Of a stretch of DNA of 338 bases, positions 1 through 338 are shown piece by piece (positions within the stretch are counted from its first letter, which is position 1; each line of letters opens with the position of its first letter). The notes under the pieces are model-generated. The model searched no databases. It saw nothing but the letters and a program-made list of their open reading frames with translations, and was not told the DNA's origin. The DNA is from Escherichia coli (lineage in GTDB: Bacteria; Pseudomonadota; Gammaproteobacteria; Enterobacterales; Enterobacteriaceae), in the NCBI RefSeq assembly GCF_003334305.1, contig NZ_QOWS01000084.1; one strand, given 5' to 3'. Position numbers and translations under genes: made by a program.

Positions 1-338
1 GTCTCCCGCCCCTGCGCATCCTTCTGACTGACCAGTTGCCCACGCGGGTTATAACTGCTGTAAGTGCTGATGCCTTCTTCCCGGTGAACGGCGATTTGTT
101 GACCGTACCGGTCATACTCATACCGCGTCGTGTACCCCGAGCAGTCCGTGAAGGCCAGCAGCTGACCGTAACGGCTCCATGCCATCTGTTTTGTACTGCC
201 CGTCGCATCCTCTATCCCTGTCGGCAGCTCACTCGCCGGGTCATCATAGCTGTACCGCATCGTCTCACCGCTGCGCGAGGTCTCCGCCGTCAGCCTTCCC
301 TTCTCATCATACTCCCGGCTGCTGCGAAGCCCGTCCGG
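1..338 (-). CDS. Internal fragment of an Rhs-family / YD-repeat protein core (polymorphic toxin scaffold); partial at both ends
   Basis: Minus-strand frame with codons at + 338..3 has no stop in 112 codons; the other two minus frames were not translated. Translation contains the YD-repeat signatures REYDEKGRL, RYSYDDP, RYEYDRYGQQI and YSSYNPRGQL at regular spacing. G-rich coding strand (hand count on + strand: C=123, G=82) and Arg/Gly/Tyr/Asp/Thr-rich composition fit Rhs cores. In-frame ATGs (+ 258-260 and 183-185) are internal Met codons with YD repeats on both sides, not starts. Paralog cannot be assigned from 338 bp, so no gene symbol is given. Confidence 0.9.
30..317 (-). repeat. Five consecutive protein-level YD (RHS) repeat units, period about 63-69 nt
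   Basis: Repeat cores on + strand coordinates (read on minus strand): 288-317 REYDEKGRLT; 222-257 RYSYDDPASELP; 150-179 WSRYGQLLAF (degenerate, W in the aromatic position, no D); 90-125 RYEYDRYGQQIA; 30-65 TYSSYNPRGQLV (N in place of D). Aromatic anchor residues fall at protein positions 10, 31, 54, 75, 96, i.e. spacings of 21, 23, 21, 21 residues. Similarity is at the amino-acid motif level; the nucleotide sequences of the units are divergent. Confidence 0.75.

What the first reader, a model, noticed from the sequence alone, without database searches (positions are those of the whole stretch)
1..338. Likely multi-copy sequence; possible recombination or assembly hazard
Rhs core sequences typically occur in several near-identical copies per genome and act as substrates for homologous recombination (the name derives from rearrangement hot spot). 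A 338-bp internal core window may not map uniquely and may sit in a collapsed or chimeric assembly region.
Basis: established knowledge. Interest (0 to 1): 0.3.

Follow-up and report, generated by a model that had tools for sequence, protein, structure and literature searches.

The report
Rhs toxin-shell gene fragment, usually single-copy
The window is an ordinary internal piece of an E. coli Rhs toxin gene that sits next to a type VI secretion system. It belongs to a repeated gene family, but this version is single-copy in about three quarters of the genomes that carry it, so the repeat warning applies only to the rest.

Summary
The window is an in-frame internal fragment (minus strand, aa 489-600 of a 1409-aa protein) of an E. 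coli Rhs core gene. It encodes about three YD repeats of the shell that encloses the C-terminal toxin.

It belongs to the lineage found downstream of hcp-vgrG in the yafV/tRNA-Asp type VI secretion island, called rhsG in one paper. The same lineage also occurs at the yncH-pptA (rhsE) locus.

The copy-number claim is only partly right.
- 1871 of 5426 complete E. coli genomes hold a full-length copy at 95% identity or more: median 1 per genome, maximum 3.
- Of 47 genomes with an exact copy, 34 have one copy, 6 have two and 7 have three.
- The other Rhs subfamilies are only 71-75% identical, with exact runs of 18 nt or less, so they cause no mapping or recombination problem.

Where extra copies exist, the hazard is real.
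- Strain TUM1887 has the window inside a 1985-bp perfect repeat at two loci 1.28 Mb apart.
- Several genes are mosaic or chimeric.
- Two replicon-less 7-kb circular "plasmid" records consist only of Rhs-element sequence.
- Short rhs contigs turn up in MAGs of unrelated taxa.

All of this is known Rhs biology. The source genome is unknown, so its own copy number cannot be checked.

The parts
1..338 (-). In-frame internal fragment of an Rhs core ORF. It equals nt 1465-1802 (aa 489-600, codon phase 0) of the 4230-bp rhs gene of strain 214-4.
   Evidence: The full gene product scores 2635 bits on NF041261, above the cut-off of 2000.
192..311 (-). YD (RHS) repeat, aa 10-49 of the translated window
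   Evidence: Pfam PF05593 i-E 1.7e-06; TIGR01643 best stretch covers aa 10-50
72..176 (-). YD (RHS) repeat, aa 55-89 of the translated window
   Evidence: Pfam PF05593 i-E 8.7e-08
6..53 (-). Start of a third YD repeat (aa 96-111), cut off by the window end
   Evidence: Pfam PF05593 partial match, i-E 0.11, model positions 1-16; weak on its own
174..175 (.). Mosaic boundary. In roughly 780 genomes (e.g. p10A) window 1-174 stays about 95% identical, while 175-338 drops sharply and largely fails to align (only 267-338 aligns, at 73.6%).
94..114 (.). Interval holding a gene-conversion tract boundary. The downstream copy in TUM1887 keeps only mismatches 22, 39, 42 and 94 of the 11 seen in A7's downstream copy, and equals the main copy from position 114 onward.

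Best explanation
The window is a piece of protein-coding sequence. It encodes about three YD repeats in the middle of the core of an E. coli Rhs polymorphic toxin. The core folds into a beta-sheet shell that encloses a variable C-terminal toxin, and the protein is delivered through the neighbouring VgrG spike of a type VI secretion system (inferred from homology and gene order, not shown here). This core lineage is the one found after hcp-vgrG in the yafV/tRNA-Asp island (Jackson's position 1; called rhsG in PMC10711316). It also occurs at the yncH-pptA locus (position 6, the rhsE/rhsH site). It is a member of a repeated family, but copies similar enough to recombine or to confuse read mapping come only from the same lineage. 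Such copies are present in about a quarter of carrier genomes. They take three forms: a tandem downstream pseudogene about 7 kb away, a copy at the second locus about 1.28 Mb away, or both. In those genomes homologous recombination and gene conversion between copies have visibly occurred. In the majority the window is unique.
For: Identity: (RHS_core equivalog 2635 bits against a 2000 cut-off, full profile; TIGR03696 at aa 1181-1258). Solved relatives are Tse5 8cp6 (E 5e-122) and EAEC Rhs 7q97 (E 1e-91). Context: hcp-vgrG-rhs next to tssBCEFG and yafV/ivy/fadE, with tRNA-Asp and dnaQ on the far side; at position 6, vgrG-rhs between yncH and pptA. Copy number: (median 1; 34 of 47 exact-match genomes single copy). 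Divergence from other subfamilies. Multi-copy cases: A7 and UC4224 have a 96.7% tandem copy 6.95 kb away in the same orientation, and A7 has a third copy at 97.9% at position 6. TUM1887 has two exact copies inside a 1985-bp perfect direct repeat 1.28 Mb apart, plus a 98.8% copy. Recombination footprints: mosaic identity profile, conversion tract, chimeric A7 position-6 gene. Literature: position-1-type cores also occur at position 6 (PMC2935791). In Salmonella, rhs main/orphan recombination occurs across 522 bp at 95% identity (PMC3967940).
Against: The source genome is unknown, so nothing here shows whether the window is single- or multi-copy where it was sampled. The source record is only 338 nt long, and that could itself reflect a fragmented assembly. 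Copy counts come from finished E. coli genomes only and rely on those assemblies having resolved Rhs repeats correctly. The shell and T6SS-delivery function is inferred by homology, not tested. No reference RhsG (ECOR-50) sequence was compared directly, so the 'RhsG/H' label rests on locus position, on the NCBI name 'dsORF-h1' of the neighbouring gene and on one paper's usage.
Confidence: 0.88

Rival explanations
1. In its own genome the window is one of two or three near-identical copies. It would then be ambiguous for short-read mapping and a live substrate for RecA-dependent recombination.
For: 13 of 47 exact-match complete genomes have 2-3 copies at 95% identity or more. TUM1887 has two perfect copies within a 1985-bp perfect repeat. 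The tandem and dispersed copies are in direct orientation.
Against: 34 of 47 exact-match genomes, and 45 of 60 evenly sampled carrier genomes, have one copy only.
Confidence: 0.28
2. The 338-nt source is itself an assembly product: a short contig left over from a collapsed or chimeric Rhs repeat.
For: The source is only 338 nt long. Short rhs-core contigs of 1058 and 3574 nt exist in MAGs, and the 1058-nt one switches from main-type to downstream-type sequence. Two replicon-less circular 6.8 and 7.3-kb records consist only of Rhs-element sequence.
Against: The window is not chimeric: it is 100% identical over all 338 nt to 47 finished genomes. Its ends do not coincide with any point where known copies diverge. 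Mismatches fall at 22...301, and the perfect repeat in TUM1887 extends 654 and 993 nt beyond the window. Seven metagenome contigs of 5-40 kb carry it intact, and the ones traced end near ISAs1 or inside vgrG, not in the window.
Confidence: 0.07
3. The plus strand carries a real overlapping gene: plus frame 3 is open across the whole window, as part of a 222-aa ORF.
For: There are no stops in plus frame 3. The ORF L001 11682-12350 is 222 aa.
Against: The frame acquires stops in p10A and in K-12 rhsD. One antisense frame of the whole GC-rich gene is generally stop-poor: 17 stops against 49 in each of the other two. Nothing is annotated there, and all protein-family signal is on the minus strand.
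Confidence: 0.01

Closest known systems
E. coli rhsG/rhsH-type elements (Hill's RhsG-H subfamily; Jackson et al. clade I, positions 1 and 6)
   Same: Same chromosomal sites: dnaQ/tRNA-Asp to fadE, and yncG/yncH to pptA. Directly downstream of vgrG. GC-rich YD-repeat core followed by a variable tip and a small downstream ORF, with ISAs1 (H-repeat) copies flanking. At position 6 the neighbouring gene is named 'dsORF-h1' by NCBI. PMC10711316 names the gene at this site rhsG. PMC2935791 already reports position-1-type cores at position 6.
   Different: Nothing of substance. No direct comparison with the original ECOR-50 RhsG sequence was possible.
E. coli K-12 rhsA/rhsB/rhsC (the classical rearrangement hot spots)
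   Same: Same protein family and architecture. In K-12 the homologous 338 nt is 100% identical between rhsA and rhsB and 97.3% identical in rhsC, and rhsA/rhsB share a 1811-nt perfect run.
   Different: They are only 71.4% identical to the window over 140 nt, with a longest exact run of 18 nt. They are not vgrG-linked in K-12. They are always multi-copy in K-12, whereas this lineage is usually single-copy.
Salmonella Typhimurium rhs-main / rhs-CT-orphan pair (PMC3967940)
   Same: A tandem direct repeat of rhs sequence in a T6SS island. Recombination across 522 bp of 95% identity creates chimeric genes. The main rhs plus downstream pseudogene in A7, UC4224 and TUM1887 (96.7-98.8% in the window) form a longer substrate of the same kind.
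   Different: The Salmonella orphan shares only the 3' end of the core. Here the downstream copy retains most of the core, including this mid-core window.
Solved T6SS Rhs shells: Tse5 (8cp6) and EAEC Rhs (7q97)
   Same: Sequence-level homologues across the YD-repeat shell. Query aa 293-933 align to Tse5 187-830, which covers the window's aa 489-600.
   Different: Different N-terminal and toxin domains. No structure was modelled here.

Membership tests
RHS element core protein (NCBIfam NF041261, equivalog) | Full-length match above the curated cut-off of 2000 bits | tested here: met
   The host gene in strain 214-4 scores 2635 bits over profile 1-1261. The window alone covers profile positions 488-599 at 211 bits, as expected for a fragment.
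RHS element core protein (NCBIfam NF041261, equivalog) | Tandem YD repeats | tested here: met
   TIGR01643 E 1.4e-17 with 2 stretches, and PF05593 two to three times in the window; 5 stretches in the full protein.
RHS element core protein (NCBIfam NF041261, equivalog) | Rhs-associated core domain (the DPXG region) ending the core, followed by a variable C-terminal tip | tested here: met
   TIGR03696 lies at aa 1181-1258 of the host protein, followed by a 150-aa tip. Identity between alleles collapses after about nt 3700. This feature lies outside the window.
T6SS-delivered Rhs effector | Genetic linkage to vgrG/hcp and a T6SS gene cluster | tested here: met
   hcp-vgrG-rhs lies adjacent to tssB...tssM in 214-4, A7, UC4224, TUM1887 and p10A; vgrG-rhs also at position 6.
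T6SS-delivered Rhs effector | Secretion, toxicity and protection by a cognate immunity protein | not testable with these tools
   Only small downstream ORFs were seen (sel1-repeat protein, ydcD, dsORF-h1/e4).
RhsG-H subfamily (Hill) | Core diverged by about a quarter from the RhsA-B-C-F and RhsD-E cores | tested here: met
   71.4% identity to K-12 rhsA/B/C and 74.6% to rhsD. The three-subfamily scheme is cited in PMC2935791.
RhsG-H subfamily (Hill) | Near-identity to the reference RhsG/RhsH sequences from the ECOR strains | not tested
   The reference sequences were not retrieved. The assignment rests on locus, on the NCBI 'dsORF-h1' label and on PMC10711316.
Intragenomic repeat able to drive homologous recombination or misassembly | A second copy in the same genome with high identity and long exact runs (well above the roughly 25-nt minimal processing segment; own knowledge, Shen & Huang 1986) | tested here: inconclusive
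   Met in 13 of 47 exact-match genomes, for example a 1985-nt perfect repeat in TUM1887 and a 51-nt longest run in A7. Not met in 34 of 47. Not testable for the source genome.

The most novel reading that the evidence does not exclude
The two small circular records made only of Rhs-element sequence are pL65-4 (6767 bp) and pF873-2 (7307 bp). Neither has a typed replicon, and the structure traced in detail for pF873-2 is the permuted unit of a tandem rhs pair, with the circle junction inside the rhs core. They could be genuine excised recombination circles, which are the 'circular intermediates' that Jackson et al. proposed as the vehicle of Rhs tip displacement. The alternative is that they are assembler artefacts.
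Probability: 0.1. Interest if true: 0.45.

Novelty: already known. Interest (0 to 1): 0.12.

Why it matters
This is mainly practical. Anyone mapping reads, calling variants or closing E. coli genomes across this locus should know three things.

1. The K-12 picture of near-identical Rhs cores does not transfer automatically to the vgrG-linked rhsG/H lineage.
2. About a quarter of carrier strains do have 2-3 copies at 96.7-100% identity in the cases examined, sometimes with kilobase-long perfect repeats at two loci 1.28 Mb apart.
3. Public databases already contain likely by-products of this: replicon-less 7-kb "plasmids", and rhs contigs binned into Akkermansia and Collinsella MAGs.

Biologically it adds nothing new to Rhs biology.

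Tried and rejected
- **Exact-pattern scans.** A 186-nt sub-pattern worked.
- **Species-representative genomes.** A 47-nt scan found no Escherichia record, only two mis-binned MAG contigs, so it says nothing about taxonomic range.
- **Circular records.** I tried to decide whether pL65-4 and pF873-2 are artefacts by looking for identical chromosomal copies in the same strains. The L65 chromosome did not appear among hits at 99% identity or more, and F873 is not in the collection. This remains unresolved.
- **RNA families.** Rfam gave nothing meaningful (one match at 12.6 bits, E 0.82).
- **Repeats inside the window.** Only 12-13-nt chance-level matches were found. The weak 58-nt similarity at 76% to a segment 471 nt away reflects YD periodicity.
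- **Antisense ORF.** Rejected as a gene.
- **Deletions.** The two deletions ending inside the window are not homologous events, since they have 0-2 nt of microhomology.
- **Naming.** I first called the island 'T6SS-1' in my notes. The literature read here calls it T6SS-2, so I name it by its flanking genes instead.

Full report
**What the window is.**
The 338 bases have one frame that is open throughout and reads as YD-repeat protein: minus strand, frame 1, 112 codons (PDGLRSSREYDEKGRL...QKDAQGRE). It matches the NCBIfam equivalog model RHS_core (NF041261) at profile positions 488-599 of 1261 with E 2e-62. It also matches the YD-repeat model TIGR01643 and Pfam RHS_repeat two to three times. 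GC content is 55-65%, as expected for the GC-rich Rhs core described in PMC2935791.

In strain 214-4 the window is nt 1465-1802 of a 4230-bp rhs gene, codon phase 0, aa 489-600. That gene's 1409-aa product scores 2635 bits on RHS_core (cut-off 2000) over the whole profile. It has the Rhs-associated core domain at aa 1181-1258, followed by a 150-aa variable tip. Its closest solved relatives are the T6SS Rhs shells Tse5 (8cp6, E 5e-122) and EAEC Rhs (7q97), whose aligned regions cover the window. The observation that this is Rhs core sequence is therefore confirmed. The window encodes about three YD repeats of the toxin-enclosing shell; that function is inferred from homology.

**Where it lives.**
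In 214-4, A7, UC4224, TUM1887 and p10A the gene follows hcp-vgrG at one end of a complete type VI secretion cluster. The cluster is inserted between yafV/ivy/fadE and tRNA-Asp/dnaQ. This is 'position 1' of Jackson et al. (PMC2935791), and PMC10711316 calls the gene there rhsG.

The same exact window also occurs at 'position 6' (yncH to pptA, the K-12 rhsE site) in TUM1887. There it lies in a second rhs gene next to a gene that NCBI names 'dsORF-h1', downstream of vgrG and of an RhsE-like frameshifted rhs that is only 75% identical. Jackson et al. had already noted position-1-type cores at position 6.

**Copy number, the core of the finding.**
- Megablast against 5426 complete E. coli genomes finds the lineage in 2669 genomes, with a median of 1 place per genome and a maximum of 4.
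- Restricted to full-length matches at 95% identity or more (E <= 1e-150), 1871 genomes carry 2419 places: median 1, maximum 3.
- Forty-seven records hold a 100% copy. Of these, 34 have that copy only, 6 have two and 7 have three.
- An evenly spaced sample of 60 carrier records gives 45, 9 and 6 records with one, two and three places.
- Distant blastn raises the count to a median of 6 places per genome, but the additions are other Rhs subfamilies at 70-80% identity.
- K-12 lacks the lineage. Its best matches are rhsD at 74.6% (longest exact run 15 nt) and rhsA/B/C at 71.4% over 140 nt (run 18 nt); rhsE gives no match.

Runs this short, at this divergence, are below what RecA-dependent recombination or read mis-mapping needs. 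This rests on established knowledge: a minimal processing segment of about 25 nt (Shen & Huang 1986). For comparison, Salmonella rhs recombination was observed across 522 bp at 95% identity (PMC3967940). As a control, the homologous 338 nt in K-12 is 100% identical between rhsA and rhsB and 97.3% identical in rhsC, and rhsA and rhsB share a 1811-nt perfect run. It does not generally hold for this one.

**Where extra copies exist, the hazard is real.**
- *A7 and UC4224.* A frameshifted second rhs lies 6.95 kb downstream in the same orientation, separated by ISAs1 copies. Its version of the window is 96.7% identical (11 mismatches, longest exact run 51 nt). A7 has a third copy at position 6 at 97.9%.
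- *TUM1887.* The window is exact both at position 6 and in the main gene at position 1. Both copies lie inside a 1985-bp perfect direct repeat 1.28 Mb apart. A 98.8% copy sits in the downstream pseudogene.

**Footprints of past exchange are plain.**
- Identity between alleles is patchy along the gene.
- Roughly 780 genomes match window 1-174 at about 95% and then diverge sharply; in p10A only 267-338 of the remainder aligns, at 73.6%, which puts a mosaic boundary inside the window.
- TUM1887's downstream copy keeps only 4 of the 11 differences seen in A7's copy. This places a conversion boundary between window positions 94 and 114.
- A7's position-6 gene is a three-part chimera: an e4-type 5' end, a middle of the downstream type from position 1, and an h1-type 3' end.

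**Assembly evidence.**
- Seven metagenome contigs (5-40 kb) contain the exact window intact. The ones traced end near ISAs1 or inside vgrG, not in the window. With a single copy it assembles without trouble.
- The plasmid database holds two small circular records with no replicon typed, pL65-4 (6767 bp) and pF873-2 (7307 bp). They consist solely of Rhs-element sequence and include a 96-97% copy of the window.
- pF873-2 is the circular permutation of a tandem rhs pair, closed inside the core. That is the form expected either from an assembler collapsing a direct repeat or from a real excision circle. I could not discriminate between the two.
- In the species-representative genome set, a 47-nt piece of the window occurs only in a 3574-nt contig of an 'Akkermansia muciniphila' MAG and a 1058-nt contig of a 'Collinsella' MAG. 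The shorter contig switches from main-type to downstream-type sequence. These look like short E. coli rhs contigs that were mis-binned.

**Other readings.**
The plus-strand frame 3 is open across the window, as part of a 222-aa ORF. It picks up stops in divergent homologues and looks like a compositional by-product. Rfam and repeat scans found nothing.

**Verdict.**
The finding is a correct family-level caution applied to a lineage where it holds only about a quarter of the time. Whether it holds for this window's own genome cannot be decided without that genome. On the evidence from finished genomes carrying the identical sequence, the window is more likely unique (about 72%) than repeated (about 28%). 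Nothing here departs from known Rhs biology, so both interest and novelty are low.

Noticed in passing
window 239|240 and about 60-62; L012 7239|7240 (NZ_CP074721.1), L013 about 7060-7062 (NZ_LS483297.1): Two independent deletions have one end inside the window's sequence and the other inside tagH. They remove the 5' part of rhs, vgrG, hcp, tssBCEFG and the 5' part of tagH. The junctions have 0 and 2 nt of microhomology, so they are illegitimate rather than homologous events. The position-239 junction recurs in several large STEC-size genomes (H53, H113, H114). PMC10711316 describes a comparable rhsG-tssM deletion in ST410.
   Followed up: yes
L023 (NZ_CP034740.1, pL65-4, 6767 bp) and L024 (NZ_OY757120.1, pF873-2, 7307 bp): These are circular 'plasmid' records with no replicon or relaxase typed, composed only of rhs core, tip, DUF3969, a hypothetical gene and ISAs1 fragments. 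pF873-2 is the permuted unit of a tandem rhs pair. pL65-4 is only about 96.5% identical to every other genome and carries fragmented rhs CDSs. They are probably repeat-derived assembly artefacts and possibly real excision circles.
   Followed up: partly
L025 (SFDX01000073.1, 'Akkermansia muciniphila' MAG, 3574 nt) and L026 (JAIJJM010000952.1, 'Collinsella sp.' MAG, 1058 nt): Species-representative MAGs of unrelated phyla contain short contigs that are E. coli rhs core (97% identical to the window). This is almost certainly binning contamination. L026 switches from main-type (98.6%) to downstream-type (98.9%) sequence at about nt 403-424, which is either chimeric assembly or natural mosaic.
   Followed up: partly
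L022 10768-15021 (A7, NZ_CP028767.1 2340767-2345020): The single rhs at the yncH-pptA locus of A7 is a three-part chimera. Nt 1-600 are identical to TUM1887's RhsE-like 'e4' gene, about 650-2250 are 97-100% identical to the downstream pseudogene at position 1, and 2250 to the end match TUM1887's 'h1' gene. This is consistent with fusion of a tandem pair plus inter-locus conversion.
   Followed up: yes
L015 6657/6658 (metagenome contig OIER01001667.1), corresponding to L002 20864-21365: An in-frame 501-bp (167-codon) deletion lies inside the rhs core, about 0.5 kb upstream (in the gene) of the window, with a 2-nt junction microhomology. It could be a real allele or an assembly skip between YD repeats; this was not resolved.
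   Followed up: partly
window 3-338 plus strand; L001 11682-12350: A stop-free antisense frame spans the whole window (222-aa ORF in the full gene). It gains stops in p10A and K-12 rhsD. One antisense frame of the whole gene is stop-poor (17 stops against 49 and 49), which is typical of GC-rich coding sequence.
   Followed up: yes
NZ_CM128587.1 3762689-3763026 (H29/H159): The feature annotated under an exact copy of the window is 'tssD: type VI secretion system tube protein TssD' rather than an Rhs protein. This may be an annotation or pseudogene-merging oddity.
   Followed up: no
PLSDB records NZ_OL790696.1 (4.80 Mb), CP099174.1 (1.31 Mb), CP061270.1 (1.20 Mb), NZ_AP023206.1 (404 kb): Megabase-scale 'plasmid' records carry the window. 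At least the 4.8-Mb record looks like a chromosome filed as a plasmid, so plasmid hits for this sequence should not be read as mobility.
   Followed up: no
L002 11200-14859 with ydcD at 10734-11216; L011 (K-12 rhsE-ydcD): The downstream rhs pseudogene in the yafV T6SS island ends with the same ydcD gene that follows rhsE in K-12. The RhsE-type tip and immunity module is therefore shared between positions 1 and 6.
   Followed up: no
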